Shown here: positions 22,058 to 37,637 of the stretch, piece by piece
Layout: each line of letters starts with the position of its first letter
How positions within the stretch are numbered: the first letter of the stretch is position 1
UHGV virus genome: UHGV-1359774
Strand: one strand, 5' to 3'
Origin: a virus
Length of the DNA stretch: 56,960 bases
Made by a program: the position numbers and the translations under genes
Notes under the pieces: model-generated
Seen by the model: only the letters and a program-made list of their open reading frames with translations
What the model was told of the DNA's origin: nothing
The model's database searches: none

Positions 22058-22066
22058 GGGGCCGTC

Positions 22067-22285: not shown

Positions 22286-22291
22286 CTGAGG

Positions 22292-22328
22292 GGCCGGGCG
22301 CTTATGGCGTCCGGCCTTTTATTTTTTT
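22292..22328 (+). terminator. intrinsic terminator (GGCCGGGCGC-ttatg-GCGTCCGGCC then TTTTATTTTTTT)
   Basis: Direct reading. Confidence 0.6.
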
Positions 22329-22337
22329 CTGCCCCCC

Positions 22338-22369
22338 CCAAAAAAGTGAGTGTTTAATCTGTTTTTGCC
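22338..22369 (+). promoter_or_regulatory. late-operon motif copy B (CAAAAAAGTGAGTGTTTAATCTGTTTTTGCC), ~50 nt upstream of the tape-measure gene
   Basis: Identical over 30 nt to copy C. Confidence 0.5.
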
Positions 22370-22410
22370 GTCATGCGGGCGCTAGAGTTTTCCCAAAAAG
22401 GAGAAAGCGT

Positions 22411-25400: not shown

Positions 25401-25422
25401 ACGCAGGGCCATCAGGAGGTAA
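22411..25422 (+). CDS. tail length tape-measure protein
   Basis: 1003 aa, long helical low-complexity protein; AAGGAGAAA RBS; followed by M/L/K homologues. Confidence 0.8.
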   Translation: MPGIVVGIDVSEFNKKLSAAQQAVNGLSSVLKVVPREALKTAAALNDTGKNFKNTADNSATFSKELNGASSAAQKAALNIKSLGARILALVGAYKALEGIKGYYQNIINFNSSIESSTISIASVLGATNKIATAEGKSLEGIEKFNAAQKISAELMEQIQVLALESTATFEGLADGVSGIIAPATKAGIAIEKLPKFAVTAAQAMAAMKIPTQQMRTEIEALLSGNINKVQDILATNLGITGEMVKNWQKQGTLIEELEKRLRIFAEAGKASAQTWSGLVSNLNDAYDYLSAKTGKGIFEGMKQSFRELLDILVNTKGKLGVGEDIQNIVKMVTELQDEIGNGLISVTRDFIDDIKELNKPENIADIKRGFSEFKNTLTGTFDILKSVVSTLKDAISFSLKGWSDAPDIIKEMGLIGAIALGAKGRIALLAIGAAAEGLERLQAVMYKLGMSSSSDVTSQMLKTAGYLDQSELYDTGPSLASTRKPKTQPPALSNSHGAPALASSHGTESNSGREKYKTGNDIGGFGGENKGQSKIENAQEKIKRLREEINRLNDDASKAGNSLDQKLREIEKLGESAGLSASEVSQLKTEYTQAFKADTLKEFDKALLEAQGDTQALQQIKIDETMQTWGAQFSQLNTKLSELGLATIDATPKLEEMRKALEHEQNTKNLQVTADFYKQLAEYSGDYNLSMEYQNRLIEIQGQNWIQNGIAMNDVIKMQELMRQEAARDPWSGMLRGMRKWSGEATNLGKQVETSLTSAFDNASDALADFVTTGKLNFADLANSIISDLARIAARQAIGGIVGGLASGLGNLFGGSYTDTAKNMVNYIPGVNFSAKGNVFSGGNISDYSNSIVSRPTLFSYGSQLQPFARGAGLMGEAGREAILPLARTSGGNLGVYATFEQRQLQRDMDSLKASMNTVEAIILSHKAQREAAAAPAPEVKVNIINNSNAQVTQETRTDNYGNKTIDVMVGDAAARQLNRPGTTLNKSFYQQTGLQRRAIRR

Positions 25423-25424
25423 AC

Positions 25425-25808
25425 ATGGGCGCAATCTGGCCCCCTGCCCTGCCGCAACGCCCGCAGCGAAGCGGCTACAAATCGCAGTACCCGAACCAGC
25501 TTATCCGTTCCGATATGGACAGTGGCCCGGCCAAGGTGCGCCGACGCGGCAACGCCAAGCCGGTGACGCTCTCTCTGACCTATGTGCTCAATGCGGAGCA
25601 ATTGGCGGTTTTCAAGGATTTTGTCTCGGAAGCCATCGCGGAGGGCGCGGTCTGTTTCGACTGGCCGCATCCGGTGCTCAACCGTTATGTCCGGGCGCGC
25701 CTAGTGGGACAAAATTCGTCCATCTACGACGAACAACTGTTCGGCGATACCTTGGACTGGCAGATAACCTTAACACTGGAGTACTGGCCCGATGCCCCTC
25801 TCACCTAA
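25425..25808 (+). CDS. minor tail protein M-like
   Basis: GGAGG RBS; size and blocks (GYKSQYP...VTLSLTYVLNAEQLAVFKDF) parallel lambda gpM. Confidence 0.5.
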   Translation: MGAIWPPALPQRPQRSGYKSQYPNQLIRSDMDSGPAKVRRRGNAKPVTLSLTYVLNAEQLAVFKDFVSEAIAEGAVCFDWPHPVLNRYVRARLVGQNSSIYDEQLFGDTLDWQITLTLEYWPDAPLT

Positions 25809-26313
25809 AGCGCTTTCGGTCATCTTGGAGCCATCCACTGAAGAGCGAGAAATCGGCCTGATTACCATGACCCACGCCAAGTGGGCGGAGCCTATCCGCT
25901 TGTCCACGGATGCCACGGAATGGCTGCGCAACGATGAAAAGAGCGGCGAACCGATTTACTGCACCAAAAGCCGGGGAGAAATCTATCTGTACGCGCCCAT
26001 GAATGCCGTACTGCCGGATTCCAGCGAGGAGTCCCCGCCCACCGGCAAGGTGACGTTCTCCAACGTGGGCCGCATCGTCACACCGTATCTGACGCTGGTA
26101 GACAGCAAGTATCCGCGCGTAACCCTGGAAGTGGTGTTGGCTTCCAGTCCTGACATCGTGGAAGTATGCTATCCGGAACTCGATCTTTCTTCAGCCAACT
26201 GGGACAGTCAGACGGCGGAAGTCTCCATGTCCATGAACATCGTCGCCCATGAACCCATGCCCTGGCTGCGCTTCGTGCCCGCCTATTTTTACAACATCAC
26301 TGCCGGAGAGTAA
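25792..26313 (+). CDS. minor tail protein L-like (by position)
   Basis: Position between the M-like and K-like genes. Confidence 0.4.
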   Translation: MPLSPKALSVILEPSTEEREIGLITMTHAKWAEPIRLSTDATEWLRNDEKSGEPIYCTKSRGEIYLYAPMNAVLPDSSEESPPTGKVTFSNVGRIVTPYLTLVDSKYPRVTLEVVLASSPDIVEVCYPELDLSSANWDSQTAEVSMSMNIVAHEPMPWLRFVPAYFYNITAGE

Positions 26314-26314
26314 T

Positions 26315-26719
26315 ATGGACCTGCGCAAATATATCGGCATCCCGTTTCGGGACCACGGGCGCGGCTTTGACGGTTGCGATTGCTGGGGCTTGTGTATGCT
26401 GGCCTACCGCGAGGAACTTGGCCTGGAACTGCCGGACCTGGGCGACGCGTACTCCGAAGCCTATGCCCGCGGCGAAGTGGACGCGACAGTCAGGCGCACC
26501 GTGTCGGAATCCTGGAACCTTGACGTGACCGGCGGCCCGTATCTGCCCCTGGACGTGATGATATTCAGCCGGGGCGGCGAGGATTGCCATGTGGGGCTAT
26601 GGGTGGCCCCCGGAGAAATGCTGCATGTTATTGAGGGCATCGACGCCTGCCTGGAACGCTTCGATAGCGCGCGATGGAAACGCAAGCTCTCGCGGGTTAT
26701 CCGGCACCGGCAGCGCTAA
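26315..26719 (+). CDS. tail assembly protein K-like, NlpC/P60 Cys-His peptidase domain
   Basis: GCDCWGLCMLAY ... HVGLWV ... H pattern; GGAGAG RBS. Confidence 0.55.
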   Translation: MDLRKYIGIPFRDHGRGFDGCDCWGLCMLAYREELGLELPDLGDAYSEAYARGEVDATVRRTVSESWNLDVTGGPYLPLDVMIFSRGGEDCHVGLWVAPGEMLHVIEGIDACLERFDSARWKRKLSRVIRHRQR

Positions 26720-27385: not shown

Positions 27386-27616
27386 TCAGCGCGCGACTTC
27401 TTCCGAAGCCGTGACAATCGCCAACAGCATTACCGCTATCTCTTCCAGTTGCCGCAGCGACGGCACGCGGCCACGGGTCTTGTAAGCCATGAACATCGGC
27501 GCGCCTTCACGGATCACCTTGTTCAAGACATCCCGAGAGCTGCGCTCCCGTTCCATGGTCCGCGCGACATCATCTTCAACACGGTCCATGACCCGGCGCA
27601 GGGCGTCGTCACTCAT
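27386..27616 (-). CDS. hypothetical protein
   Basis: Start overlaps the stop of the upstream gene. Confidence 0.35.
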   Translation of the reverse strand: MSDDALRRVMDRVEDDVARTMERERSSRDVLNKVIREGAPMFMAYKTRGRVPSLRQLEEIAVMLLAIVTASEEVAR

Positions 27617-28127
27617 GGCTCACCTCGCCGATAGGCATGCTTTCGCCTTCTTCTTGCGCCTCTTCCCCGCTCTCCGGGGCCGGGGGCTGAAAAAGATCGC
27701 TTGCCCATGTTTCCTTCGGCCCCTGTGCGCGGGACTCTTCCGCCACAGTGCCGAAAAGGGAATCAACAAAACCCTGTGCAGGGTCTGTGCTTTGGTGCTT
27801 GGGCGTGGCCGCATAGCAGATCATGTTACCCGGCTGCAACAGGTCAAACGGGATTGGCCTGTCCGACAGCCGGAAGAACAGATATTGCCGCGCGGGCGTG
27901 GTCGTGCCTGGAATCGGCGGCTGTTGCATGACAACATAGCTGAAGACCATCTTGCCCTTGTCGCTCACCGTCACCTGCTGGCTGTTCCGCGCAATGCAGT
28001 GCATACGCGAAACATTGGGTTCCATGCCATAGCGCGGATCAGCGTCCGCAGGCAGGTTGGGAATGTAGACCAGGGAATAGTCCACTACGCCGTCGCTGAA
28101 ACGGGCCGGAAGAGGCAGTTTGCTCAT
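27609..28127 (-). CDS. hypothetical protein
   Basis: Start 2 nt after the stop of the upstream ORF. Confidence 0.4.
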   Translation of the reverse strand: MSKLPLPARFSDGVVDYSLVYIPNLPADADPRYGMEPNVSRMHCIARNSQQVTVSDKGKMVFSYVVMQQPPIPGTTTPARQYLFFRLSDRPIPFDLLQPGNMICYAATPKHQSTDPAQGFVDSLFGTVAEESRAQGPKETWASDLFQPPAPESGEEAQEEGESMPIGEVSHE

Positions 28128-28131
28128 GGTT

Positions 28132-28468
28132 ACACCTTTGCCCTTTCGGGCTGGCTTTGGGTTTCTTCCTTTTTCATGAGATGGGCGCGGGCCTGGGCCG
28201 CAGCCGAAGCCACATGCCCAAGCTCACGGATAGCGTCACGAATGCAGCCGGTTCCGGCCTTGTAGGCGTCCACGGCCTTTTTCGCTTCGCCGTATTCCAT
28301 CTCCACAATGCCCCAGTATTCGCCCTTGGCGAGATAGGGCGGCCATGTGGGCGGCGGGCTGTTTACGGTATCCCATTCGAAGTTCAGGGTTTCGCGTAAA
28401 TAATCACCGCCGCCCCGAGGTTCTCGGTCAGCTTCTTCAGCTTGGTTTTCATCCCGTCCGTGACCGTC
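28132..28468 (-). other. open frame continuing in phase directly after the TGA of the Arg/Asp-rich ORF (possible recoding, extension domain, or separate gene with a non-ATG start)
   Basis: The frame stays open ~110 codons after the TGA at 28472-74 and keeps an R/D/E/G-rich composition (ADGHGRDENQAEEADREPRGGGDY...). Confidence 0.3.
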
Positions 28469-28471
28469 CGC

Positions 28472-28882
28472 TCAGTCATAGCCGTCGTCATCGTCGTAAT
28501 ATTCCCGCTCACGGCGGCTACGACGCTCACGGCGGCGTTCACGGTCGTTTTCGTCCTCGTAGTAGCGGCGCTCACGCTCCGGGTCCACGAAGCCCTGAGT
28601 CTGCCAGTCGTCCTCGCGGTAACGGCGGCGGCCCATGTCATCGTGCTCGTCGCCGCGATAGCCCCAGTCCTCGTGATCGTCGTTGTACTCGTGGCGACGG
28701 CGGCGGAATTCGCCGTAGCGATTGCGCGGGGGCAGACGCCGGGCCTCATAGCGGCCGCCGTCCTCCTCCATGCGCATCCGGCTCCGGCCGCCGGAACCGC
28801 GACGATAATCGTATTCGTAACGGTCATCGTCGCGCCGGTCGTCCCGTCCGCCATCACGGCGCATCATGATTCGCATGGTCAT
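28472..28882 (-). CDS. Arg/Asp/Glu/Tyr-rich low-complexity protein (136 aa)
   Basis: GGAGG RBS 6 nt upstream; G/C-rich third positions in this frame; the hydrophobic antisense ORFs are artefacts of GAC/CGC codons. Confidence 0.5.
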   Translation of the reverse strand: MTMRIMMRRDGGRDDRRDDDRYEYDYRRGSGGRSRMRMEEDGGRYEARRLPPRNRYGEFRRRRHEYNDDHEDWGYRGDEHDDMGRRRYREDDWQTQGFVDPERERRYYEDENDRERRRERRSRREREYYDDDDGYD

Positions 28883-28893
28883 AGCATGCCTCC

Positions 28894-29706
28894 TTACGCG
28901 GTGGGCGTGGTGGTAGAGGCCGTGCGGATCGCGGCCATGTGACCAATGATGTTCACGGTGTTGGCGTTCATTTCATTGCGCAGCTGCGAACCCAGACCAG
29001 CCACAGCCTGGGCCGTGAAGTTCTGGGCTTCCATGGACGCAATCTTGGACTTGGCGTCACAGAGCTGGGTTTGCAGGTTTTCGTAAGCGTAGCGGTCGAT
29101 CAGCTGACGCGTGGCCGAACCTTCGGCCATAATGGTGCGCTGCGTGGTGCAGCAGCAATCATTGATGGCGCTGGTGACCTGATTGGTGCTCTGGCAGGAC
29201 AGCAGGGCATTGTCCTTGCTGGAACTCAGGATGGCCGTGTTGACGCCGTTGAAGCCCTGACAGAGGCTGTTCTGAAGCGACTGGTCACCGGAGACGATGG
29301 TGGAATTCAGGCCCGCAAAGCCCTGAGTCAGGGTGTTGTTCACGCTGGCGGTCTGCGCGGCGGTTTCAGCGGCAAGACCGCCGAAGCCCTGGCAGGCGGC
29401 CAGATTCGCGGCGTTCTGGCCCTGCAAGACCTGCAATCCAACGCCATTAATGCTGGTCTGGATGCCGCTCAGCGCGTCCAGCTCAGCGGTGGAAGCGGTG
29501 CCGCCGCCGGGATTCCCGGCGATAATCACCGAAGGAGCGCCGCCGCCGGAATTGCAGCAGCCGCCATTGCCGCCGTTGTTGCCAAAGCCGTTGCCCCACC
29601 AGGAGCCGAACAGCGCCCCGGCAAAGGCTCCAACAGCATCGCCCCAGCCGTTGTTGTTGCCGCCGTCATTGACCGAAAAAGTGGGGACAAACCCGTCCAT
29701 GCCCAT
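28894..29706 (-). CDS. Gly/Asn/Gln/Ser/Thr-rich protein with CC and CCC clusters and QGF(x)G(x)N repeats (~271 aa from the ATG with RBS)
   Basis: GGAGG RBS before MGMDGF; own promoter upstream and a terminator before that. Confidence 0.5.
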   Translation of the reverse strand: MGMDGFVPTFSVNDGGNNNGWGDAVGAFAGALFGSWWGNGFGNNGGNGGCCNSGGGAPSVIIAGNPGGGTASTAELDALSGIQTSINGVGLQVLQGQNAANLAACQGFGGLAAETAAQTASVNNTLTQGFAGLNSTIVSGDQSLQNSLCQGFNGVNTAILSSSKDNALLSCQSTNQVTSAINDCCCTTQRTIMAEGSATRQLIDRYAYENLQTQLCDAKSKIASMEAQNFTAQAVAGLGSQLRNEMNANTVNIIGHMAAIRTASTTTPTA

Positions 29707-29764
29707 AGCAATACCTCCAAAGTTTTTCCCGGCGGGATGCCGGGCTTTGAAAAGATGATGGGCC

Positions 29765-29794
29765 AATGGATGGATTCTTACTAACTACGGATGG
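29765..29794 (-). promoter_or_regulatory. sigma70-like promoter TTGTCG-N17-TAAGAAT for the Gly-rich/RD-rich operon
   Basis: Direct reading of the minus strand. Confidence 0.4.
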
Positions 29795-29840
29795 TTACGA
29801 CAAAGTATGGGTGGGATATGGATAGCGTTTTTTTGAACAT

Positions 29841-29869
29841 GAAAAAGCCGGGCATTTAAGGTGCCCGGC
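29841..29869 (-). terminator. intrinsic terminator (GCCGGGCA-loop-TGCCCGGC then TTTTT) after the Zn-ribbon gene
   Basis: Direct reading. Confidence 0.55.
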
Positions 29870-29874
29870 CGTGG

Positions 29875-30081
29875 TCATTCCAGCTTTGCTTTCCGGACTG
29901 GACGCAATCTGCCTTCCGGGCGTTCCAGCATGTACCGCGCGCCGCATTCCTTGTTCTGGCATGTCCAGTAGGAAACGCGCGAATATTCGAGAGGATGGCC
30001 ATCAAGGCCGATGGAAATCGTTCTGGTGCATTTTAAGGATTGCAGCCCGCATTTTGGGCAAAATTGTCTGCTGGTCGCCAT
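29875..30081 (-). CDS. small zinc-ribbon protein (CPKCG...CQNKEC)
   Basis: ORF followed by an intrinsic terminator. Confidence 0.4.
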   Translation of the reverse strand: MATSRQFCPKCGLQSLKCTRTISIGLDGHPLEYSRVSYWTCQNKECGARYMLERPEGRLRPVRKAKLE

Positions 30082-30245
30082 GGTGCAAGCCCCTTGGCTC
30101 GCCCCGACCGCCCTATGGATTTTTTTATCAATTTCCGATTAACTACGCAGGGCGGATACTCTGCAAGCGGCTTCCCTCCGCTTGTGGGGCCGTGGGGATG
30201 CGTTGCTGCGCATCTCCGGCGGGGGCGCGTGAAGCCCCCGCCCCT

Positions 30246-30605
30246 CTACCGCTTTTGGGCGCGTGCCCTGTTGTTCCGTTCTTCTTTTTTGTGGCGCTCC
30301 GCGTTTTTCAGGTCAACAAATTGCGCATCCAGGAGCCGCAGCCGCCACAGCAGTTCTTCCGGCTCGGCATGACGCGCGATCTCCGCTAAAAGGGCCTCAT
30401 GCCGGATTGCCAGGGTTGCGCCCGTCATGTTGTCCACCGGCGCGCCATGCTGCCGCAGCATGTGCCATATCCGCATCGCTTCCTCGTTACGCGGACTCAG
30501 CGGCCAATGTCGGGTACAGTTGGCGCAATCTTGCTTCTCTTTGTGTATCCAACGGCAGTCATTGCATGTGGGCCGGTCGCCAAATTGCCAACCGGCCCAC
30601 TCCAT
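30246..30605 (-). CDS. tail assembly chaperone T-part (-1 frame extension, G-T fusion)
   Basis: Starts inside the stop of the G-like ORF (TGATG); slippery A_AAA_AAC heptamer. Confidence 0.5.
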   Translation of the reverse strand: MEWAGWQFGDRPTCNDCRWIHKEKQDCANCTRHWPLSPRNEEAMRIWHMLRQHGAPVDNMTGATLAIRHEALLAEIARHAEPEELLWRLRLLDAQFVDLKNAERHKKEERNNRARAQKR

Positions 30606-30970
30606 CAGTTTTTTTCTTCTTCCAGCCGCCCTTCACGCGCGATATGCTTTAAACGGCCATACTGCCGGTCCATGAAGGCATTTTCGACGTCGCAGAGTTC
30701 GGCCACCATGTCGGGGCTGAACGGCAGCGGTTCATTGTTCAAATCCATCAAACCGTCCCAACCCACAATCTGCGTCTGCATGACCACGGGCAGGATTCTG
30801 AGCCCGGCCAGATCGGTGTCATAGCCGCATTCGGCCATGACCTTTTTTACCACCTCTTGCTGCGCCGTGGCAGACAGGGGCTTGCAAAGAAAATACGCCT
30901 GGCCGTCCGGCGTCAGATCCATGCGAAAAACCTTTTCCTGATATTTCCTGGTCAGAACCGTGAAGGCCAT
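30605..30970 (-). CDS. tail assembly chaperone G-like
   Basis: AAGGAG RBS; position after the tube gene; slippery site at its 3' end. Confidence 0.55.
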   Translation of the reverse strand: MAFTVLTRKYQEKVFRMDLTPDGQAYFLCKPLSATAQQEVVKKVMAECGYDTDLAGLRILPVVMQTQIVGWDGLMDLNNEPLPFSPDMVAELCDVENAFMDRQYGRLKHIAREGRLEEEKN

Positions 30971-30972
30971 GT

Positions 30973-32118
30973 TTACGCTCCTTGAATGGTGATGGTGAAA
31001 CTGTCTTCGCCCTGGATGCCCAAAGCCGTGCCCGTGCTGTCCAGCGTCAGAACAGCGTCGTCCTCACCGACTGTGGGAGAGGAAAGACGCACCTTGGGTG
31101 TGTTCACCGCAATACTGCCGTTGCTGTTTTCCGCCTTCAGGGTCACGTCCAGGGTCACGCCTTCCAGCGTTTGACCAAAGCGTACGGCCTCTGCTTTACG
31201 GAAGTACACGCTCATATCCATGCTGATGCTGCGCTTATTGTCCGACGCCTCGCCGGGGAACTTGTCTCCGACTTCCTCAAGGAATTGCGTGGGCAGCGAC
31301 GCGGTGAAGGTGGAAGGACGGATACGGCCCTCTACACCATCAATCAGCAGTGAAACGCTGTTGTTTTCCACTTCCACGCCGATGGTATCCGCCTCCGGCA
31401 GCCAGGGGCCGATTTCCTCTCCCGCCAGCCAGTCCGTGGGCGCGGTGTCCAGAACCAGCGTATCCGTGGCCGTGTCGATGGCCGTAATCTGGTATTCTTG
31501 GCTCTCATTCTTGCTCACGTTACGGATGAAACCGCCCACGCTGAAGGCCAGGGATTGCCCCGTTTCCAGCTTGATTGTGGTAGTGTCCGGAACTTCGGCC
31601 AACTCACCGAAGCCGACCACGCCAGCCCGGCGGCCACGCCCGGAGAAGGTGAAGATAGTCAGGCCGTCGCGATCCACGGCCCATTCCAGGCTTTCCACGG
31701 TGCAACCGCTCATAAACTGCACGGTCTGGTCATTTTGCAGCCAGAGGGACGCCGTGGGGCGGCAAGTGGAAAGCCGGTACTGGCGCTTATTGGCTGTGCT
31801 GGCATCCACAATGCCGAGAGTGGCCCGGAACAGCGCGTCACCCTGCGGGGCACCGGCGGACGGCGTAAGCCGCGCCACCATGGGCAAGGACCAGTCGCCA
31901 GGCGGCATGGCGTCCCGGCTCTGGCTCACCACATCCAGGGTGGCGGCAAGTTCCGGGCTATCCGTGAATGTGGGTGTCTGCGCGATGGAACCGCGCCCGG
32001 CTGGACGGATAAACCCGGCGGGCACCGGCTTTTCAAGTATACCGGTGGCTGTTTCCAGCATGACAAAGGCGCGCTGGACATTGCTTTTTTGCACGGTCGA
32101 GCACATGGCTTGCGACAT
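30973..32118 (-). CDS. major tail (tube) protein
   Basis: AGGAGG RBS before the ATG at 32118; size and position upstream of the G/GT chaperone. Confidence 0.55.
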   Translation of the reverse strand: MSQAMCSTVQKSNVQRAFVMLETATGILEKPVPAGFIRPAGRGSIAQTPTFTDSPELAATLDVVSQSRDAMPPGDWSLPMVARLTPSAGAPQGDALFRATLGIVDASTANKRQYRLSTCRPTASLWLQNDQTVQFMSGCTVESLEWAVDRDGLTIFTFSGRGRRAGVVGFGELAEVPDTTTIKLETGQSLAFSVGGFIRNVSKNESQEYQITAIDTATDTLVLDTAPTDWLAGEEIGPWLPEADTIGVEVENNSVSLLIDGVEGRIRPSTFTASLPTQFLEEVGDKFPGEASDNKRSISMDMSVYFRKAEAVRFGQTLEGVTLDVTLKAENSNGSIAVNTPKVRLSSPTVGEDDAVLTLDSTGTALGIQGEDSFTITIQGA

Positions 32119-32119
32119 T

Positions 32120-32578
32120 CTAGACCTCCTGTGCCCTGGGCCCTTCAAAAACGGTGTGCCAGGGGATATTGGTTTGTATCAGATACCGGCCTGTGTCCGG
32201 CGCGGTGCCGCGATCTTCGGTATAGGGTTCCCCACAATGCACGGCGCATGATCCGGCCGAGAAAGACTTGCGGCGGAAAGCGGCCTCAAGCGCTGAACCT
32301 GTCTGGAGGCCCTGCCCTACCGCCATCTTCTTCGGTAGGCTTTGTGTGATGATCCAGACGCCCACGCGGGTGGAAAGAGCCTGTGGGCCGCCCAGTTCGT
32401 CGGAAGTGGAAAGGCCCGGCTTGAAACTGTAGAGGATATGCAGCCTCGCCTGATCCAGATTGCTGTCGCTGTTCATGGGCAAAAGCTGATATTGTCCGGA
32501 ACCCGCCGGAAAAAGCGCGTCCAGCGCCTCGCTGGTCAGGGTGGAAAAGGCCCGCAGAATCAGATCAAGGCGCAGCAT
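32120..32578 (-). CDS. tail terminator / tail completion-like protein (by position)
   Basis: GGGGAAAA RBS; sits between the gp10-like and tube genes. Confidence 0.4.
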   Translation of the reverse strand: MLRLDLILRAFSTLTSEALDALFPAGSGQYQLLPMNSDSNLDQARLHILYSFKPGLSTSDELGGPQALSTRVGVWIITQSLPKKMAVGQGLQTGSALEAAFRRKSFSAGSCAVHCGEPYTEDRGTAPDTGRYLIQTNIPWHTVFEGPRAQEV

Positions 32579-32580
32579 GG

Positions 32581-32979
32581 CTAGATTTTCCCCAGCTCTG
32601 AGTTCATCTGGTGCTTCATCTCCTGGAGAGCGAGGGCAACCATGCCCTGAGGGGCGTTCTTCGACCAGCCTGCCTCAAGCGCCTCGATATATTCCAAATT
32701 GCTGCTGATATACCACATATCCGGATTTGCCTGGAGTATTTCCGCTACTGTCTTCTGCACAATGGTGTTTATCTCGCCTTTGTAGTTTCCCGGCGGCGGC
32801 ACATAGTCACTGGGCGCACTGGTGGAAAACTGCCACGAGCGCTTGGCTCTGCCCGTCTCCACCGGAGTGCGCTCCACGATTTTTTTGTAAGTCATAATCA
32901 CAATGCCCCTGACGGCTCCCAACGCCTCACCTTGGATTTTAAGCCGCACCAGTTCGTTGAGCGTGCGCTGGAAGTCGTC
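32581..32979 (-). pseudogene. 5'-truncated copy of the HK97 gp10-like gene, created at the duplication junction
   Basis: Identical to the 3' 369 nt of 37134..37637; the junction at 32979/32980 joins it in phase to the frame downstream of the RD-rich ORF. Confidence 0.5.
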
Positions 32980-33024
32980 GTCAGCTTCTTCAGCTTGGTT
33001 TTCATCCCGTCCGTGACCGTCCGC

Positions 33025-33435
33025 TCAGTCATAGCCGTCGTCATCGTCGTAATATTCCCGCTCACGGCGGCTACGACGCTCACGGCGGCGTTCACGGTCG
33101 TTTTCGTCCTCGTAGTAGCGGCGCTCACGCTCCGGGTCCACGAAGCCCTGAGTCTGCCAGTCGTCCTCGCGGTAACGGCGGCGGCCCATGTCATCGTGCT
33201 CGTCGCCGCGATAGCCCCAGTCCTCGTGATCGTCGTTGTACTCGTGGCGACGGCGGCGGAATTCGCCGTAGCGATTGCGCGGGGGCAGACGCCGGGCCTC
33301 ATAGCGGCCGCCGTCCTCCTCCATGCGCATCCGGCTCCGGCCGCCGGAACCGCGACGATAATCGTATTCGTAACGGTCATCGTCGCGCCGGTCGTCCCGT
33401 CCGCCATCACGGCGCATCATGATTCGCATGGTCAT
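33025..33435 (-). CDS. Arg/Asp/Glu-rich low-complexity protein (copy 2)
   Basis: Identical to 28472..28882. Confidence 0.5.
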   Translation of the reverse strand: MTMRIMMRRDGGRDDRRDDDRYEYDYRRGSGGRSRMRMEEDGGRYEARRLPPRNRYGEFRRRRHEYNDDHEDWGYRGDEHDDMGRRRYREDDWQTQGFVDPERERRYYEDENDRERRRERRSRREREYYDDDDGYD

Positions 33436-33446
33436 AGCATGCCTCC

Positions 33447-34259
33447 TTACGCGGTGGGCGTGGTGGTAGAGGCCGTGCGGATCGCGGCCATGTGACCAAT
33501 GATGTTCACGGTGTTGGCGTTCATTTCATTGCGCAGCTGCGAACCCAGACCAGCCACAGCCTGGGCCGTGAAGTTCTGGGCTTCCATGGACGCAATCTTG
33601 GACTTGGCGTCACAGAGCTGGGTTTGCAGGTTTTCGTAAGCGTAGCGGTCGATCAGCTGACGCGTGGCCGAACCTTCGGCCATAATGGTGCGCTGCGTGG
33701 TGCAGCAGCAATCATTGATGGCGCTGGTGACCTGATTGGTGCTCTGGCAGGACAGCAGGGCATTGTCCTTGCTGGAACTCAGGATGGCCGTGTTGACGCC
33801 GTTGAAGCCCTGACAGAGGCTGTTCTGAAGCGACTGGTCACCGGAGACGATGGTGGAATTCAGGCCCGCAAAGCCCTGAGTCAGGGTGTTGTTCACGCTG
33901 GCGGTCTGCGCGGCGGTTTCAGCGGCAAGACCGCCGAAGCCCTGGCAGGCGGCCAGATTCGCGGCGTTCTGGCCCTGCAAGACCTGCAATCCAACGCCAT
34001 TAATGCTGGTCTGGATGCCGCTCAGCGCGTCCAGCTCAGCGGTGGAAGCGGTGCCGCCGCCGGGATTCCCGGCGATAATCACCGAAGGAGCGCCGCCGCC
34101 GGAATTGCAGCAGCCGCCATTGCCGCCGTTGTTGCCAAAGCCGTTGCCCCACCAGGAGCCGAACAGCGCCCCGGCAAAGGCTCCAACAGCATCGCCCCAG
34201 CCGTTGTTGTTGCCGCCGTCATTGACCGAAAAAGTGGGGACAAACCCGTCCATGCCCAT
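33447..34259 (-). CDS. Gly/Asn/Gln-rich Cys-cluster protein (copy 2)
   Basis: Identical to 28894..29706. Confidence 0.5.
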   Translation of the reverse strand: MGMDGFVPTFSVNDGGNNNGWGDAVGAFAGALFGSWWGNGFGNNGGNGGCCNSGGGAPSVIIAGNPGGGTASTAELDALSGIQTSINGVGLQVLQGQNAANLAACQGFGGLAAETAAQTASVNNTLTQGFAGLNSTIVSGDQSLQNSLCQGFNGVNTAILSSSKDNALLSCQSTNQVTSAINDCCCTTQRTIMAEGSATRQLIDRYAYENLQTQLCDAKSKIASMEAQNFTAQAVAGLGSQLRNEMNANTVNIIGHMAAIRTASTTTPTA

Positions 34260-34427
34260 AGCAATACCTCCAAAGTTTTTCCCGGCGGGATGCCGGGCTT
34301 TGAAAAGATGATGGGCCAATGGATGGATTCTTACTAACTACGGATGGTTACGACAAAGTATGGGTGGGATATGGATAGCGTTTTTTTGAACATGAAAAAG
34401 CCGGGCATTTAAGGTGCCCGGCCGTGG

Positions 34428-34634
34428 TCATTCCAGCTTTGCTTTCCGGACTGGACGCAATCTGCCTTCCGGGCGTTCCAGCATGTACCGCGCGCCGCAT
34501 TCCTTGTTCTGGCATGTCCAGTAGGAAACGCGCGAATATTCGAGAGGATGGCCATCAAGGCCGATGGAAATCGTTCTGGTGCATTTTAAGGATTGCAGCC
34601 CGCATTTTGGGCAAAATTGTCTGCTGGTCGCCAT
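34428..34634 (-). CDS. small zinc-ribbon protein (copy 2)
   Basis: Identical to 29875..30081. Confidence 0.4.
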   Translation of the reverse strand: MATSRQFCPKCGLQSLKCTRTISIGLDGHPLEYSRVSYWTCQNKECGARYMLERPEGRLRPVRKAKLE

Positions 34635-34798
34635 GGTGCAAGCCCCTTGGCTCGCCCCGACCGCCCTATGGATTTTTTTATCAATTTCCGATTAACTACG
34701 CAGGGCGGATACTCTGCAAGCGGCTTCCCTCCGCTTGTGGGGCCGTGGGGATGCGTTGCTGCGCATCTCCGGCGGGGGCGCGTGAAGCCCCCGCCCCT

Positions 34799-35158
34799 CT
34801 ACCGCTTTTGGGCGCGTGCCCTGTTGTTCCGTTCTTCTTTTTTGTGGCGCTCCGCGTTTTTCAGGTCAACAAATTGCGCATCCAGGAGCCGCAGCCGCCA
34901 CAGCAGTTCTTCCGGCTCGGCATGACGCGCGATCTCCGCTAAAAGGGCCTCATGCCGGATTGCCAGGGTTGCGCCCGTCATGTTGTCCACCGGCGCGCCA
35001 TGCTGCCGCAGCATGTGCCATATCCGCATCGCTTCCTCGTTACGCGGACTCAGCGGCCAATGTCGGGTACAGTTGGCGCAATCTTGCTTCTCTTTGTGTA
35101 TCCAACGGCAGTCATTGCATGTGGGCCGGTCGCCAAATTGCCAACCGGCCCACTCCAT
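34799..35158 (-). CDS. chaperone T-part (copy 2)
   Basis: Identical to 30246..30605. Confidence 0.5.
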   Translation of the reverse strand: MEWAGWQFGDRPTCNDCRWIHKEKQDCANCTRHWPLSPRNEEAMRIWHMLRQHGAPVDNMTGATLAIRHEALLAEIARHAEPEELLWRLRLLDAQFVDLKNAERHKKEERNNRARAQKR

Positions 35159-35523
35159 CAGTTTTTTTCTTCTTCCAGCCGCCCTTCACGCGCGATATGC
35201 TTTAAACGGCCATACTGCCGGTCCATGAAGGCATTTTCGACGTCGCAGAGTTCGGCCACCATGTCGGGGCTGAACGGCAGCGGTTCATTGTTCAAATCCA
35301 TCAAACCGTCCCAACCCACAATCTGCGTCTGCATGACCACGGGCAGGATTCTGAGCCCGGCCAGATCGGTGTCATAGCCGCATTCGGCCATGACCTTTTT
35401 TACCACCTCTTGCTGCGCCGTGGCAGACAGGGGCTTGCAAAGAAAATACGCCTGGCCGTCCGGCGTCAGATCCATGCGAAAAACCTTTTCCTGATATTTC
35501 CTGGTCAGAACCGTGAAGGCCAT
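35158..35523 (-). CDS. tail assembly chaperone G-like (copy 2)
   Basis: Identical to 30605..30970. Confidence 0.55.
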   Translation of the reverse strand: MAFTVLTRKYQEKVFRMDLTPDGQAYFLCKPLSATAQQEVVKKVMAECGYDTDLAGLRILPVVMQTQIVGWDGLMDLNNEPLPFSPDMVAELCDVENAFMDRQYGRLKHIAREGRLEEEKN

Positions 35524-35525
35524 GT

Positions 35526-36671
35526 TTACGCTCCTTGAATGGTGATGGTGAAACTGTCTTCGCCCTGGATGCCCAAAGCCGTGCCCGTGCTGTCCAGCGT
35601 CAGAACAGCGTCGTCCTCACCGACTGTGGGAGAGGAAAGACGCACCTTGGGTGTGTTCACCGCAATACTGCCGTTGCTGTTTTCCGCCTTCAGGGTCACG
35701 TCCAGGGTCACGCCTTCCAGCGTTTGACCAAAGCGTACGGCCTCTGCTTTACGGAAGTACACGCTCATATCCATGCTGATGCTGCGCTTATTGTCCGACG
35801 CCTCGCCGGGGAACTTGTCTCCGACTTCCTCAAGGAATTGCGTGGGCAGCGACGCGGTGAAGGTGGAAGGACGGATACGGCCCTCTACACCATCAATCAG
35901 CAGTGAAACGCTGTTGTTTTCCACTTCCACGCCGATGGTATCCGCCTCCGGCAGCCAGGGGCCGATTTCCTCTCCCGCCAGCCAGTCCGTGGGCGCGGTG
36001 TCCAGAACCAGCGTATCCGTGGCCGTGTCGATGGCCGTAATCTGGTATTCTTGGCTCTCATTCTTGCTCACGTTACGGATGAAACCGCCCACGCTGAAGG
36101 CCAGGGATTGCCCCGTTTCCAGCTTGATTGTGGTAGTGTCCGGAACTTCGGCCAACTCACCGAAGCCGACCACGCCAGCCCGGCGGCCACGCCCGGAGAA
36201 GGTGAAGATAGTCAGGCCGTCGCGATCCACGGCCCATTCCAGGCTTTCCACGGTGCAACCGCTCATAAACTGCACGGTCTGGTCATTTTGCAGCCAGAGG
36301 GACGCCGTGGGGCGGCAAGTGGAAAGCCGGTACTGGCGCTTATTGGCTGTGCTGGCATCCACAATGCCGAGAGTGGCCCGGAACAGCGCGTCACCCTGCG
36401 GGGCACCGGCGGACGGCGTAAGCCGCGCCACCATGGGCAAGGACCAGTCGCCAGGCGGCATGGCGTCCCGGCTCTGGCTCACCACATCCAGGGTGGCGGC
36501 AAGTTCCGGGCTATCCGTGAATGTGGGTGTCTGCGCGATGGAACCGCGCCCGGCTGGACGGATAAACCCGGCGGGCACCGGCTTTTCAAGTATACCGGTG
36601 GCTGTTTCCAGCATGACAAAGGCGCGCTGGACATTGCTTTTTTGCACGGTCGAGCACATGGCTTGCGACAT
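35526..36671 (-). CDS. major tail (tube) protein (copy 2)
   Basis: Identical to 30973..32118. Confidence 0.55.
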   Translation of the reverse strand: MSQAMCSTVQKSNVQRAFVMLETATGILEKPVPAGFIRPAGRGSIAQTPTFTDSPELAATLDVVSQSRDAMPPGDWSLPMVARLTPSAGAPQGDALFRATLGIVDASTANKRQYRLSTCRPTASLWLQNDQTVQFMSGCTVESLEWAVDRDGLTIFTFSGRGRRAGVVGFGELAEVPDTTTIKLETGQSLAFSVGGFIRNVSKNESQEYQITAIDTATDTLVLDTAPTDWLAGEEIGPWLPEADTIGVEVENNSVSLLIDGVEGRIRPSTFTASLPTQFLEEVGDKFPGEASDNKRSISMDMSVYFRKAEAVRFGQTLEGVTLDVTLKAENSNGSIAVNTPKVRLSSPTVGEDDAVLTLDSTGTALGIQGEDSFTITIQGA

Positions 36672-36672
36672 T

Positions 36673-37131
36673 CTAGACCTCCTGTGCCCTGGGCCCTTCA
36701 AAAACGGTGTGCCAGGGGATATTGGTTTGTATCAGATACCGGCCTGTGTCCGGCGCGGTGCCGCGATCTTCGGTATAGGGTTCCCCACAATGCACGGCGC
36801 ATGATCCGGCCGAGAAAGACTTGCGGCGGAAAGCGGCCTCAAGCGCTGAACCTGTCTGGAGGCCCTGCCCTACCGCCATCTTCTTCGGTAGGCTTTGTGT
36901 GATGATCCAGACGCCCACGCGGGTGGAAAGAGCCTGTGGGCCGCCCAGTTCGTCGGAAGTGGAAAGGCCCGGCTTGAAACTGTAGAGGATATGCAGCCTC
37001 GCCTGATCCAGATTGCTGTCGCTGTTCATGGGCAAAAGCTGATATTGTCCGGAACCCGCCGGAAAAAGCGCGTCCAGCGCCTCGCTGGTCAGGGTGGAAA
37101 AGGCCCGCAGAATCAGATCAAGGCGCAGCAT
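36673..37131 (-). CDS. tail terminator-like protein (copy 2)
   Basis: Identical to 32120..32578. Confidence 0.4.
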   Translation of the reverse strand: MLRLDLILRAFSTLTSEALDALFPAGSGQYQLLPMNSDSNLDQARLHILYSFKPGLSTSDELGGPQALSTRVGVWIITQSLPKKMAVGQGLQTGSALEAAFRRKSFSAGSCAVHCGEPYTEDRGTAPDTGRYLIQTNIPWHTVFEGPRAQEV

Positions 37132-37133
37132 GG

Positions 37134-37637
37134 CTAGATTTTCCCCAGCTCTGAGTTCATCTGGTGCTTCATCTCCTGGAGAGCGAGGGCAACCATGCCC
37201 TGAGGGGCGTTCTTCGACCAGCCTGCCTCAAGCGCCTCGATATATTCCAAATTGCTGCTGATATACCACATATCCGGATTTGCCTGGAGTATTTCCGCTA
37301 CTGTCTTCTGCACAATGGTGTTTATCTCGCCTTTGTAGTTTCCCGGCGGCGGCACATAGTCACTGGGCGCACTGGTGGAAAACTGCCACGAGCGCTTGGC
37401 TCTGCCCGTCTCCACCGGAGTGCGCTCCACGATTTTTTTGTAAGTCATAATCACAATGCCCCTGACGGCTCCCAACGCCTCACCTTGGATTTTAAGCCGC
37501 ACCAGTTCGTTGAGCGTGCGCTGGAAGTCGTCCACGTCCTTGCAGCGTTTGTTGTTGAGCTCCTTGATACGCGCGGCAAAGGCTTTTCTGGTGCGGTCTA
37601 TACCGTCAAGCTCTTTGGCAAGTGCGTCAGCCATCAC
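37134..37637 (-). CDS. HK97 gp10-family tail-component protein (full length)
   Basis: Block RTPVETGRAKRSWQF ... NLEYIEALEAG matches the gp10 family. Confidence 0.5.
   Translation of the reverse strand: MMADALAKELDGIDRTRKAFAARIKELNNKRCKDVDDFQRTLNELVRLKIQGEALGAVRGIVIMTYKKIVERTPVETGRAKRSWQFSTSAPSDYVPPPGNYKGEINTIVQKTVAEILQANPDMWYISSNLEYIEALEAGWSKNAPQGMVALALQEMKHQMNSELGKI

What the first reader, a model, noticed from the sequence alone, without database searches (positions are those of the whole stretch)
28472..29869. Self-contained operon for a Gly/Asn/Gln-rich Cys-cluster protein and an Arg/Asp/Glu/Tyr-rich low-complexity protein inside the tail module
In a lambda/SPP1-like layout the tape measure should follow G/GT. 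Instead, an intrinsic terminator (29841-69) is followed by a sigma70-like promoter (TTGTCG-N17-TAAGAAT) and GGAGG RBSs driving two genes. The first is a ~271-aa protein with a 16-aa leader ending in GG, a Gly-zipper N-terminus (GWGDAVGAFAGALFGSWWGNGFGNNGGNGGCC), three QGFxGxN repeats and a CCC cluster. The second is a 136-aa protein that is almost pure R/D/E/Y/G (RRDGGRDDRRDDDRYEYDYRRGSGG...). Neither resembles a canonical virion or lysis protein, and the pair is duplicated with the surrounding unit. Possible roles are a secreted bacteriocin/microcin-like or amyloid/prion-like moron with a disordered partner, or a new virion accessory.
Basis: partly seen in the sequence, partly recalled or inferred. 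Interest (0 to 1): 0.75.

Follow-up and report, generated by a model that had tools for sequence, protein, structure and literature searches.

The report
Conserved four-gene phage accessory cassette
The two odd genes are real, but they are the front end of a widespread four-gene phage cassette of unknown function; its second gene is split by a conserved stop codon and seems to need unusual decoding, and the bacteriocin idea is not supported.

Summary
Both ORFs exist on the minus strand and are under purifying selection. The terminator, GGAGG sites, QGF repeats, CCC cluster and duplication are confirmed. The proposed promoter does not rise above chance.

The pair is not a two-gene operon. It starts a conserved cassette, g1-g2-g3-g4, often preceded by an Ogr/Delta-like zinc-finger gene. 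The same cassette occurs in cultured phages: eiAU, PY100, phiWae15, JenP1, JakobBernoulli (BASEL Bas07) and Sasha. All copies are annotated as hypothetical.

- **g1:** the Gly-rich protein belongs to phrog_9288, a large family (1567 cluster representatives).
- **g2:** the RD-rich ORF is the detached N-terminal half of g2. The conserved C-terminal domain lies downstream without a start codon. It sits behind an in-frame TGA here, and behind TAG in the -1 frame in sister lineages. A conserved 22-31-codon ORF overlaps it. Some relatives have g2 uninterrupted, so recoding is needed; the mechanism is unresolved.
- **Host:** probably Bilophila, from the human gut.
- **Duplication:** the perfect 4553-bp tandem duplication is absent from about 20 related contigs.
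- **Function:** unknown. No bacteriocin, lysis or known tail-protein signature was found.

The parts
29875..30081 (-). 68-aa zinc-finger gene upstream of the cassette (second copy at 34428-34634). It is Ogr/Delta-like and a possible activator.
   Evidence: Pfam Ogr_Delta E 0.0068 and Zn-ribbon hits, all below the curated cut-offs. Homologous small zinc-finger genes precede g1 in L088 and phiWae15.
29846..29870 (-). Intrinsic terminator after the zinc-finger gene (second copy at 34399-34423).
   Evidence: 9-bp stem with 7 GC pairs, followed by TTTTT.
29715..29754 (-). Conserved 5'-UTR stem-loop of g1. The inner hairpin CCCGGC-AUCCC-GCCGGG is at 29744-29728, and the outer stem reaches the GGAGG Shine-Dalgarno sequence.
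   Evidence: Alignment of five lineages. RNAalifold gives 16 pairs, 8 of them with compensatory changes.
28894..29706 (-). g1: 270-aa protein with a Gly-zipper, a coiled coil and a CCC cluster (second copy at 33447-34259).
   Evidence: phrog_9288 at E 5e-22. There are 98 phage records by tblastn, 140 homologues and 1567 cluster representatives. The AF2 model is all-helical after a disordered Gly linker, with pLDDT 56.
28472..28882 (-). g2a: the RD-rich ORF (136 aa), ending ...DDDDGYD-TGA (second copy at 33025-33435). It is the N-terminal motif plus the expanded charged region of cassette gene 2.
   Evidence: Translation. The N-motif MTMRIMMRRDGG matches the start of uninterrupted g2 proteins. 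Third-position bias is 395/446/989, and conserved blocks are present.
28384..28479 (-). Small overlapping ORF 'S'. It is 31 codons from the ATG that overlaps the g2a stop, or 22 codons from the ATG at 28452: MKTKLKKLTENLGAAVIIYAKP*.
   Evidence: Its start, stop position and sequence are conserved in 8 distinct sequences, with the stop as TGA, TAG or TAA. Substitutions between close pairs are synonymous in this frame.
28384..28393 (-). Frame-transition zone G-AAA-CCC-TGA: the end of S and the point where selection switches to the EMEY-domain frame.
   Evidence: Y-A-K|T-L-N... gives gap-free colinearity with phiWae15 (GYARTL) and L088 (HYMETL).
28130..28471 (-). g2 C-terminal reading frame after the TGA: an acidic linker followed by the conserved 'PPxTW...EMEY...ELGH' helical domain. 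There is no canonical start upstream of codon 55.
   Evidence: Codon-position differences in the uncalled stretch are 78/79/228. It is homologous to the C-termini of eiAU P858_09, PY100 ORF30, phiWae15, JenP1 gp27 and Bas07_0033.
27609..28127 (-). g3: 172-aa protein with a beta-rich core and a disordered acidic tail.
27386..27616 (-). g4: 76-aa helical protein, the last gene of the cassette.
   Evidence: It aligns with eiAU P858_11, PY100 ORF32, JenP1 gp29, Bas07_0031 and Sasha gp10.
28427..37532 (.). Two exact tandem copies of a 4553-bp unit, with the novel junction at 32979/32980. The junction truncates one copy of the Neck1/tail-completion gene and one copy of g2.
   Evidence: The junction is absent from all 121 fetched loci and from IMG/VR. 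The unit is single-copy in the 20 locus fetches for related contigs (several contigs appear in both).

Best explanation
The flagged ORFs are gene 1 and the detached front half of gene 2 of a conserved, mobile, four-gene phage accessory cassette (g1-g4). In several lineages an Ogr/Delta-like zinc-finger gene precedes it. Here the cassette sits in a probable Bilophila prophage, at the point where the head-neck-tube operon and an inverted tape-measure operon converge.

**g1.** This is a member of phrog_9288. It has an N-terminal glycine zipper that resembles a fusion peptide, then a disordered Gly/Asn linker, then about 190 residues of long helices carrying QGFxGLN repeats and an invariant CCC. 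It is probably an oligomeric coiled coil.

**g2.** In the ancestor this was one protein: an MR[IV][LM]M N-terminal motif, a variable charged or His-rich disordered region, and a helical PPxTW/EMEY domain. In this clade the disordered region has expanded into the RD-rich ORF and ends at a conserved stop after ...GYD. A short ORF (S) is translationally coupled to that stop. The EMEY domain has no start codon of its own, so it must be reached by recoding. Two routes fit the data:
- (a) a -1 shift at the end of S, at G-AAA-CCN-stop;
- (b) passage of the g2a stop itself: UGA read-through here, or a +5 hop GAC-UA-GAU in sister lineages.

**Shown:** the anatomy, the conservation, the selection in each frame and the single-copy state in relatives.

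**Inferred:** the recoding route, and the function. My best guess is a late-expressed complex that acts at the cell envelope or on the virion periphery, nucleated by the g1 coiled coil with g2-g4 as partners or chaperones. I hold that guess with low confidence.
For: **The cassette is conserved.**
- g1-g2-g3-g4 occur in the same order in eiAU (P858_08-11), PY100 (ORF29-32), phiWae15, JenP1 (gp26-29), JakobBernoulli (bas07_0035-31), Sasha (gp07-10), L088 and all Bilophila-type contigs.
- g1 matches phrog_9288 at E 5e-22, and the family has 1567 representatives.
- The g3 fold matches the g3-position proteins of Salmonella and Shigella phages.

**g2 was originally one gene.**
- Uninterrupted g2 exists in L081/L082 (160 aa) and in L109-L118 (330-400 aa).

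**The split is conserved.**
- The stop falls after GYD in 8 distinct sequences: TGA with the domain in frame 0 (window, L024), or TAGATG with the domain in frame -1 (L025, L095, L080, L096, L083, L084).

**The downstream frame is translated but has no start.**
- Codon-position differences are 78/79/228.
- L025 versus L095 shows 8 synonymous and 0 nonsynonymous changes after the S stop.
- No ATG, GTG or TTG lies upstream of PPxTW.

**S is under selection.**
- Its start and stop positions are conserved, the stop changes TAG to TAA, and changes in ..LGAAVIIY are synonymous.

**The EMEY frame is kept open across S.**
- None of about 40 T-capable at-risk third positions is T, against a 17% background.

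**The RD ORF is translated**.

**The host is probably Bilophila**.

**The cassette is not the lysis cassette.**
- Holin and an Rz-like spanin lie at 46.4-47.2 kb.

**It moves as a unit.**
- It sits after the tail-fibre genes (eiAU, JenP1, Bas07), next to terL (Sasha, PY100), or in a different tail backbone with an IS beside it (L004).
Against: - The g1 model has low confidence (pLDDT 56). Its most hydrophobic 19-residue window scores only 0.89 on Kyte-Doolittle, so membrane insertion is not predicted by the usual rule.
- The HA2 resemblance is weak (E 0.002) and partly compositional.
- For the recoding, S contains no classical X_XXY_YYZ heptamer. No conserved downstream RNA structure was found, and no Rfam element.
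- The data support both frames across S, so routes (a) and (b) cannot be separated.
- In distant Firmicutes-type phages the g1-like protein has other neighbours. The four-gene association is therefore not universal.
Confidence: 0.6

Rival explanations
1. Virion accessory: g1 is a trimeric coiled-coil fibre or whisker, or an ejection/penetration protein with a fusion-peptide-like tip. g3 is its globular partner, and g2 and g4 are assembly chaperones.
For: In eiAU, JenP1 and JakobBernoulli the cassette lies directly after the tail-fibre genes at the end of the late operon. g1 is predicted as long helices. In Firmicutes-type phages the g1-like gene sits beside a BclA_C-like (C1q-type head) protein. 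The g1 N-terminus resembles the HA2 fusion peptide.
Against: There is no similarity to any known tail, fibre or head PHROG. The cassette has its own terminator-bounded unit and also sits away from tail genes, next to terL in Sasha and PY100. No virion proteomics covering these genes was found.
Confidence: 0.22
2. One reading: g1 is a secreted bacteriocin/microcin-like or amyloid-forming moron with a double-glycine leader, and the RD protein is its disordered partner or immunity factor.
For: The N-terminus is Gly-rich with a GG at residues 15-16 and a glycine zipper. The unit is self-contained behind a terminator.
Against: The N-terminal 16 residues do not fit a double-glycine leader, and the GG is not conserved in position. 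The protein is 270 aa and mostly coiled coil. The family is common in strictly lytic coliphages and Yersinia phages, where a bacteriocin moron makes little sense. No hits to bacteriocin or C39 families were found. The RD ORF is half of a conserved gene.
Confidence: 0.03
3. g2 is simply broken: the TGA is a nonsense mutation or sequencing error, and the downstream domain is a decaying pseudogene.
For: There is a single in-frame TGA in an otherwise continuous frame. Uninterrupted versions exist elsewhere.
Against: The exact 136-aa product is on record in 259 collection blocks. The stop is at the same place in lineages only 60-70% identical. The downstream domain shows strong third-position bias and no frame decay.
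Confidence: 0.04
4. The window's TGA is decoded as selenocysteine, or the sister lineages' TAG as pyrrolysine, because Bilophila has both systems. The stop would then be a sense codon in the host.
For: The host is probably Bilophila. That Bilophila wadsworthia carries Sec and Pyl machinery is from my own knowledge and was not tested here. In the TAG lineages S is in frame with the RD ORF, so TAG read-through would fuse them.
Against: No SECIS-like or conserved hairpin follows the stop. TGA is a normal stop for many long ORFs in the window. The codon is TGA in one group and TAG in the other, with a different downstream frame. A frame change is still needed in the TAG group.
Confidence: 0.07
5. 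The cassette is an alternative lysis or membrane-fusion (spanin-like or disruptin-like) module.
For: g1 combines a fusion-peptide-like N-terminus with a Cys-bearing coiled coil. In L088 a holin-like gene follows the cassette.
Against: The window phage has its own holin and Rz-like spanin next to terS. PY100 has a separate endolysin cassette. g1 has no TM-grade hydrophobic segment and no lipoprotein partner.
Confidence: 0.05

Closest known systems
PHROG family phrog_9288 (unknown function), with the linked gene sets eiAU P858_08-11, PY100 ORF29-32, JenP1 gp26-29, JakobBernoulli bas07_0035-0031 and Sasha gp07-10
   Same: g1 matches the family profile (E 5e-22). It shares the Gly-zipper N-terminus, the QGFxGLN repeats, the CCC-x-T-Q-K/R-x-I-x-A-E-G-x-A-T-R motif and the LQTQLCDAK coiled coil. 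g2, g3 and g4 follow in the same order.
   Different: The window's g1 has a longer Gly/Asn linker with an extra CC pair. Its g2 carries a much longer Arg/Asp/Glu/Tyr region instead of a His-rich one, and it is interrupted by a stop and an overlapping small ORF. The host is a Desulfovibrionaceae anaerobe, not an enterobacterium.
Programmed -1 frameshifting of phage tail chaperones (lambda G/GT type) and dnaX
   Same: There is a short zero-frame product that stops just after the transition point. A longer product continues in the -1 frame. A G-rich Shine-Dalgarno-like stretch lies 15-22 nt upstream.
   Different: There is no X_XXY_YYZ slippery heptamer and no conserved downstream structure. The candidate site is G-AAA-CCN-stop.
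Stop-codon hopping or bypassing: E. coli '+5/+6 hops' and T4 gene 60 (recalled from the literature, not tested here)
   Same: The take-off codon GAC is followed at once by a stop. A matching Asp codon lies just downstream in the required frame in every lineage: GAC-UA-GAU, GAC-UGA-GCG-GAC, GAC-UGA-GCA-GAU.
   Different: The gaps are only 2-6 nt. No gene-60-like hairpin or nascent-peptide signal has been demonstrated. The match of codons could be a by-product of the TAGATG stop-start overlap.
Influenza haemagglutinin HA2 (class I fusion protein)
   Same: The profile of the g1 family aligns its GAFAGALFGSWFGNGW segment and the start of the first long helix to the HA2 fusion peptide GAIAGFIEGGWTGMxDGW and helix A (E 0.002-0.03).
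   Different: The score is borderline and composition-driven. There is no HA1, no cleavage site and no transmembrane anchor. This is an analogy to be tested, not homology.
Ogr/Delta late-gene activators of P2-like phages
   Same: It is a small four-Cys zinc-finger protein encoded just upstream of an activator-type (poor -35) region. Homologues precede g1 in three lineages.
   Different: The Pfam score (16.7 bits) is below the cut-off of 26.3. No TGT-N12-ACA site was seen on reading the upstream region.

Membership tests
phrog_9288 (phage protein family of unknown function) | Significant match to the family profile over most of the conserved core | tested here: met
   E 5.2e-22, residues 145-244 against profile positions 107-213 of 234. 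tblastn hits in 98 phage records.
g1-g4 cassette (as in eiAU, PY100, JenP1, Bas07, Sasha) | g1 is followed in order by a charged-N-terminus/EMEY-domain protein, a protein of about 150-180 aa with PxPGT...YxGF...MHVY motifs and an acidic tail, and a helical protein of about 80 aa | tested here: met
   Alignments. Foldseek match of g3 to Segz_1 and 2019SD1 proteins, E 7e-5 to 4e-4.
Class II bacteriocin / microcin with double-glycine leader | Leader of 15-30 aa with a conserved hydrophobic pattern ending GG/GA, conserved at the cleavage site | tested here: not met
   The N-terminus MGMDGFVPTFSVNDGG runs straight into a Gly-rich region, and the GG position is not conserved among 57 homologues.
Class II bacteriocin / microcin with double-glycine leader | Small mature peptide, with a C39-peptidase ABC exporter and an immunity gene nearby | tested here: not met
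   g1 is 270 aa. No bacteriocin or C39 family was hit in the ten cassette and neighbouring proteins scanned. I did not scan every ORF of the window.
Spanin (Rz/Rz1 or u-spanin) | N-terminal transmembrane domain or lipobox, and a position in the lysis cassette | tested here: not met
   The maximum Kyte-Doolittle score over 19 residues is 0.89. A separate holin and Rz-like spanin lie at 46393-47182.
Canonical -1 programmed ribosomal frameshift | Slippery heptamer X_XXY_YYZ in the zero frame | tested here: not met
   No conserved heptamer in the small ORF across 8 sequences.
Canonical -1 programmed ribosomal frameshift | Stimulatory downstream stem-loop or pseudoknot | tested here: not met
   RNAalifold consensus energy is -2.2 kcal/mol with no covariation. 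Single-sequence z-scores are not significant except for L024.
Canonical -1 programmed ribosomal frameshift | Two protein products that share an N-terminus | not testable with these tools
   This needs proteomics or tagged expression.
Selenocysteine recoding | UGA conserved as UGA, with a SECIS hairpin just downstream | tested here: not met
   Sister lineages have UAG and another frame. No conserved hairpin and no Rfam hit.
Ogr/Delta zinc-finger activators (PF04606) | Score above Pfam's gathering threshold | tested here: inconclusive
   16.7 bits against a cut-off of 26.3, E 0.0068.
Known tail, tip or head components | Profile or fold match to a structural family | tested here: not met

The most novel reading that the evidence does not exclude
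Gene 2 of this cassette is expressed through a non-canonical recoding event that has been kept for a long time in Bilophila phages. It is either a slippery-site-free -1 shift at the stop of a 22-31-codon overlapping ORF, or a tRNA-Asp hop over the stop that ends the RD-rich ORF. The event sets the ratio of a free Arg/Asp/Tyr-rich disordered protein to a full-length protein. The cassette as a whole would be an undescribed envelope-active phage system, built around a coiled-coil protein with a viral-fusion-peptide-like tip.
Probability: 0.25. Interest if true: 0.8.

Novelty: new variant of a known kind. Interest (0 to 1): 0.5.

Why it matters
- A four-gene module of unknown function is shared by gut Bilophila prophages and by easily handled coliphages (BASEL Bas07, JenP1, 9NA/Sasha-like, T1-like). 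The g1 family has more than 1,500 protein clusters. Its function can therefore be tested directly by knock-outs in E. coli phages.
- The split gene 2 gives a natural comparative series. One gene appears uninterrupted, interrupted by an in-frame TGA, or interrupted by TAG plus a frame change, always with a conserved overlapping small ORF.
- That series is a clean test bed for recoding in bacteria that lacks the usual slippery-site signals.
- It also shows how gene callers fragment such genes. Public annotations list 136-aa and 56-aa 'proteins' here.

Tried and rejected
**Global stop-codon reassignment.** Rejected: TGA ends 16 of 43 long non-overlapping ORFs.

**Nucleotide relatives among cultured phages.** None found.

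**Function assignment.**
- Pfam and NCBIfam gave no significant hits for g1-g4.
- PDB sequence profiles gave only weak hits: HA2 for g1 and Vipp1 for g2 (E 0.011).
- I looked for a MazG-like reading of the ExxE...ELxD pattern in g2. Pfam and PDB searches did not support it.
- The AF2 model of g1 was too poor for a fold search.
- The g3 model was good but had no structural neighbour in PDB. In BFVD it matched only uncharacterised phage proteins.

**Recoding signals.**
- No SECIS or frameshift-stimulating RNA was found.
- No slippery heptamers were found.
- Re-initiation at the S stop is rejected. The overlapping codons are CUG, UUA, AUA or CUA, and the first canonical start is about 20 codons into the conserved region.

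**Relationship of the RD-rich proteins.** BLASTP between the window's RD ORF and an R/D/Y-rich protein of a Firmicutes-type phage was not significant (E 0.81).

**The duplication junction.** It was not found in IMG/VR or in any fetched locus.

**Literature.** Searches on PY100, 9NA, 9g, Drexlerviridae and Bilophila prophages found no characterisation of these genes.

**A caveat on my own evidence.** All differences are synonymous, but that is partly forced. The loci were retrieved by exact identity to the 136-aa product. I therefore re-tested with divergent relatives.
Full report
**1. What is there**

- The Gly-rich protein runs 29706..28894 (270 aa from the ATG that follows GGAGG).
- The RD-rich ORF runs 28882..28472 (136 aa).

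The Gly-rich protein has these features:
- a perfect GxxxGxxxGxxxG stretch (G26-G38);
- a first 72 residues that are 32% Gly;
- three QGFxG motifs (residues 106, 128, 150);
- nine Cys, including CC at 50-51 and CCC at 184-186.

The RD ORF is 77% R/D/E/Y/G, with 38 Arg and no Lys.

The terminator after the upstream gene is confirmed at 29870-29846. The proposed promoter TTGTCG-N17-TAAGAAT matches only 8 of 12 consensus positions. The scan did not report it, and it found no more promoter-like sites than in shuffled sequence.

**2. The duplication**

The unit 28427-32979 is repeated exactly at 32980-37532. It is 4553 bp, 100% identical, head to tail, with no microhomology.

The novel junction at 32979/32980 truncates one copy of the Neck1/tail-completion gene. 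The full copy is at 37637-37134 and matches phrog_169 at E 3e-30. The junction also cuts off everything downstream of the RD ORF in the upstream copy.

The exact 136-aa and 270-aa proteins are on record in 259 and 162 blocks of the public collection. In all 20 locus fetches for these contigs (several contigs appear in both look-ups) the unit is single-copy. The junction sequence is in none of the 121 fetched loci, nor in IMG/VR.

The duplication is therefore peculiar to this contig. It is either a recent variant or an assembly artefact, and these tools cannot decide. It is not a property of the system.

**3. It is a four-gene cassette, not a pair**

The Gly-rich protein matches phrog_9288 (unknown function) at E 5e-22. 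By tblastn it has relatives in 98 cultured-phage records from Escherichia, Salmonella, Yersinia, Edwardsiella, Shigella, Klebsiella, Enterobacter and Aeromonas. All are annotated as hypothetical.

In six cultured phages the homologue is followed by the same three genes. The phages are eiAU, PY100, phiWae15, JenP1, JakobBernoulli (BASEL Bas07) and Sasha. The three genes are:
- a protein of about 90-125 aa with a charged or His-rich N-terminal part and a conserved helical C-terminal domain (PPxTW...[IV][IV]EMEY.EL...KEL.DLAAAC);
- a protein of about 150-180 aa with PxPGT...Y.GF...MHVY motifs and an acidic tail;
- a helical protein of about 80 aa.

The window has the last two at 28127-27609 (g3) and 27616-27386 (g4).

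A small four-Cys zinc-finger gene precedes g1 in the window (30081-29875; weak Ogr/Delta match), in L088 and in phiWae15.

The cassette is bounded by terminators in Sasha and sits in different places:
- after the tail-fibre genes in eiAU, JenP1 and Bas07;
- beside terL in Sasha and PY100;
- in a different tail backbone with an IS next to it in L004.

It behaves as a mobile accessory unit. A profile of the g1 family finds 1567 cluster representatives at E <= 1e-3 in the 50%-clustered library.

In distant, low-GC phages the g1-like protein (phrog_16490, with a true hydrophobic helix) has other neighbours. These include a BclA_C-like protein and an R/D/Y-rich protein, and my g2-g4 profiles find nothing there.

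**4. Genomic setting and host**

- A g1 homologue (63% identical) lies on a contig of a Bilophila MAG.
- A g3 homologue is annotated from Bilophila wadsworthia on a 3.17-Mb contig.
- Nearly all the metagenome hits come from human-gut assemblies.

The window is thus most likely a Bilophila prophage. Integrase is at 9076-10221.

The tape-measure gene is not missing. It is on the plus strand (22411-25422), followed by two minor tail genes and an NlpC/P60 gene, and it converges on the cassette. The central fibre J is on the minus strand at 16529-12360. The cassette therefore occupies the convergence point of two late operons. In relatives that slot also holds HicAB and other morons.

The phage has an ordinary holin and an Rz-like spanin next to terS (46393-47182).

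**5. The RD-rich ORF is half of gene 2**

Translating past the TGA at 28474-28472 gives one continuous frame of 250 codons. It ends at 28130 and contains the conserved PPPTWPPYLAKGEYWGIVEMEYGEAKK...IRELGHVASAAAQ domain.

The RD ORF begins MTMRIMMRRDGG. This is the same N-terminal motif as the uninterrupted g2 proteins: phiWae15 MKRILLIRGG, eiAU MRVLMYRR, L081 MRMLMQYGG.

Relatives carry g2 as a single ORF:
- L081/L082, whose g1 is about 60% identical (160 aa);
- a more distant clade, L109-L118 (330-400 aa).

The ancestral gene was therefore one protein: N-motif, variable disordered region, then the EMEY domain.

The RD part is not featureless. Across six lineages it keeps invariant blocks (RYEARRLPPR..G.F, REDDW, RRER, DGYD). 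It shows 395/446/989 differences at codon positions 1/2/3.

**6. The interruption is conserved and needs recoding**

In eight distinct sequences the RD ORF ends at the same place, after ...D(D)GYD. Two arrangements occur:
- TGA, with the EMEY domain in the same frame (window, L024);
- TAG immediately followed by ATG, with the EMEY domain in the -1 frame (L025, L095, L080, L096, L083, L084).

The evidence on the downstream frame:
- The EMEY frame has no ATG, GTG or TTG upstream of the conserved PPxTW..YWGIV stretch in any lineage.
- That stretch is clearly translated. Codon-position differences are 78/79/228.
- L025 and L095 differ there by eight synonymous and no nonsynonymous changes.

A short ORF, S, starts at or overlaps the RD stop. 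It is 22-31 codons, with a basic N-terminal half followed by ..LGAAVIIYAKP, and it is conserved in all lineages. Its stop is always at the same position but appears as TGA, TAG or TAA. Close pairs differ synonymously in its frame up to ..VIIY.

The EMEY frame is also kept open across S. None of about 40 third positions that could synonymously become T, and so create a stop in that frame, is T. The background is about 17%.

Both frames therefore look protected.

**7. Two routes to the EMEY domain**

*Route (a).* S is translated by coupling to the RD stop, and the ribosome shifts -1 at G-AAA-CCN-stop. The product ...IIY-A-K|T-L-N-F-E-W... is then gap-free colinear with phiWae15 (G-Y-A-R-T-L + 9 aa + PPLTW) and with L088 (H-Y-M-E-T-L + 9 aa + HPETW). 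This single mechanism would serve all lineages whatever the frame of the RD ORF.

*Route (b).* The RD stop itself is passed. In the window that would be UGA read-through. In the others it would be a short hop of tRNA-Asp from GAC to the next Asp codon (GAC-UA-GAU). In the window GAC-UGA-GCG-GAC would also allow a hop.

Against a textbook frameshift:
- there is no X_XXY_YYZ heptamer;
- there is no conserved downstream structure;
- there is no Rfam match.

Other readings:
- A nonsense-mutation pseudogene is very unlikely, given the conservation.
- Selenocysteine is unlikely: no SECIS, and the relatives have TAG and another frame.
- Global reassignment is excluded, because TGA ends many long ORFs here.

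I conclude that recoding is required, but the route is unresolved.

**8. What the proteins might do**

*g1.* It is predicted with low confidence (pLDDT 56). The model has a short N-terminal helix over the glycine zipper, a disordered Gly/Asn linker, and three long helices covering residues 73-262. The only PDB sequence matches of the family profile are to influenza HA2 from residue 3. They align GAFAGALFGSWFGNGW with the fusion peptide and the next helix with helix A. At E 0.002-0.03 this is an analogy, not homology. The segment is not hydrophobic enough to be called a transmembrane helix.

*g2.* Its profile hits nothing convincing. The best is Vipp1 at E 0.011.

*Regulation.* The 5' UTR of g1 carries a conserved hairpin inside a longer stem that pairs with the GGAGG site. 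Eight of 16 pairs show compensatory changes in five lineages. This suggests regulated translation.

*Working model (inference, low confidence).* A late-expressed complex is organised by an oligomeric g1 coiled coil. Its glycine-zipper tip engages a membrane or another surface. g2-g4 act as partners or chaperones.

A virion-accessory role remains a serious rival, either as a fibre or whisker or as a penetration protein. Bacteriocin and lysis roles are not supported.

**9. Verdict**

The interpretation needs revising:
- the operon has four genes (five with the zinc finger);
- it belongs to a large known-but-uncharacterised phage family set;
- the RD-rich 'protein' is the detached, expanded N-terminal region of gene 2;
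- the duplication is contig-specific.

The novel elements are the conserved split and recoding of gene 2, with an overlapping small ORF. The function is experimentally accessible through coliphage homologues.

Interest is moderate (0.5). Novelty is a new variant of a known kind.

Noticed in passing
window 1-320 and 56775-56959: Both ends of the window carry the same 15/45-nt tandem repeat (unit TGCCAACCTGTGCGG, which would encode pentapeptide-type A-N-L-x-G repeats). The contig is probably circular, or was cut inside one repeat-containing gene.
   Followed up: partly
window 12360-26719: The tape-measure, two minor tail genes and an NlpC/P60 gene are on the plus strand (22411-26719). The head, neck and tube genes and the central fibre J (16529-12360) are on the minus strand. 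The tail module is interrupted by an inverted block, and all relatives share this layout.
   Followed up: partly
window 29715-29754 (second copy 34268-34307): The g1 5' UTR has a conserved hairpin, CCCGGC-AUCCC-GCCGGG, nested in a longer stem that pairs upstream sequence (CCUCCA in relatives) with the GGAGG ribosome-binding site. Eight of 16 pairs show compensatory changes across five lineages, which suggests regulated translation.
   Followed up: partly
window 32979/32980: The duplication junction joins the g2 linker in frame to the C-terminal 122 codons of the tail-completion gene (...AEEAD|DDFQRTLNELV...). This is probably coincidence.
   Followed up: no
L004/L014 about 7917-8957 (locus coordinates): An IS (rve-family transposase) is inserted directly upstream of g1 in a contig whose tail-tube gene differs (472 aa). 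The cassette therefore travels between backbones.
   Followed up: no
L021 804-2879: The Mu-F-like head protein is 691 aa there instead of 371 aa, with a weak intein-splicing domain hit. This is a possible intein insertion.
   Followed up: no
L026-L079 (IMG/VR loci), e.g. L028 3442-6904: In low-GC gut phages a g1-like protein (phrog_16490) with a true transmembrane-type helix sits in a different conserved set. Its neighbours are a Q/P-rich protein, a Met-rich small protein, a BclA_C-like protein, an R/D/Y-rich protein, DUF7841 and phrog_3754. All are of unknown function.
   Followed up: partly
window 46393-47182: A canonical holin and an Rz-like spanin lie just upstream of the small terminase gene, so lysis is encoded elsewhere.
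   Followed up: yes
window 4099-4881; 1763-2662; 7953-8789; 9076-10221: A PAPS-reductase-like gene, a Sak4-like annealing protein, an Ant anti-repressor and an integrase mark the early/lysogeny arm of the prophage.
   Followed up: no
L119 4827-5531 (JakobBernoulli bas07_0035/0034): In this BASEL phage g1 is annotated as two ORFs (77 aa and 125 aa, the second labelled 'putative sugar-binding protein'). This may be another interrupted or mis-called gene in the cassette.
   Followed up: no
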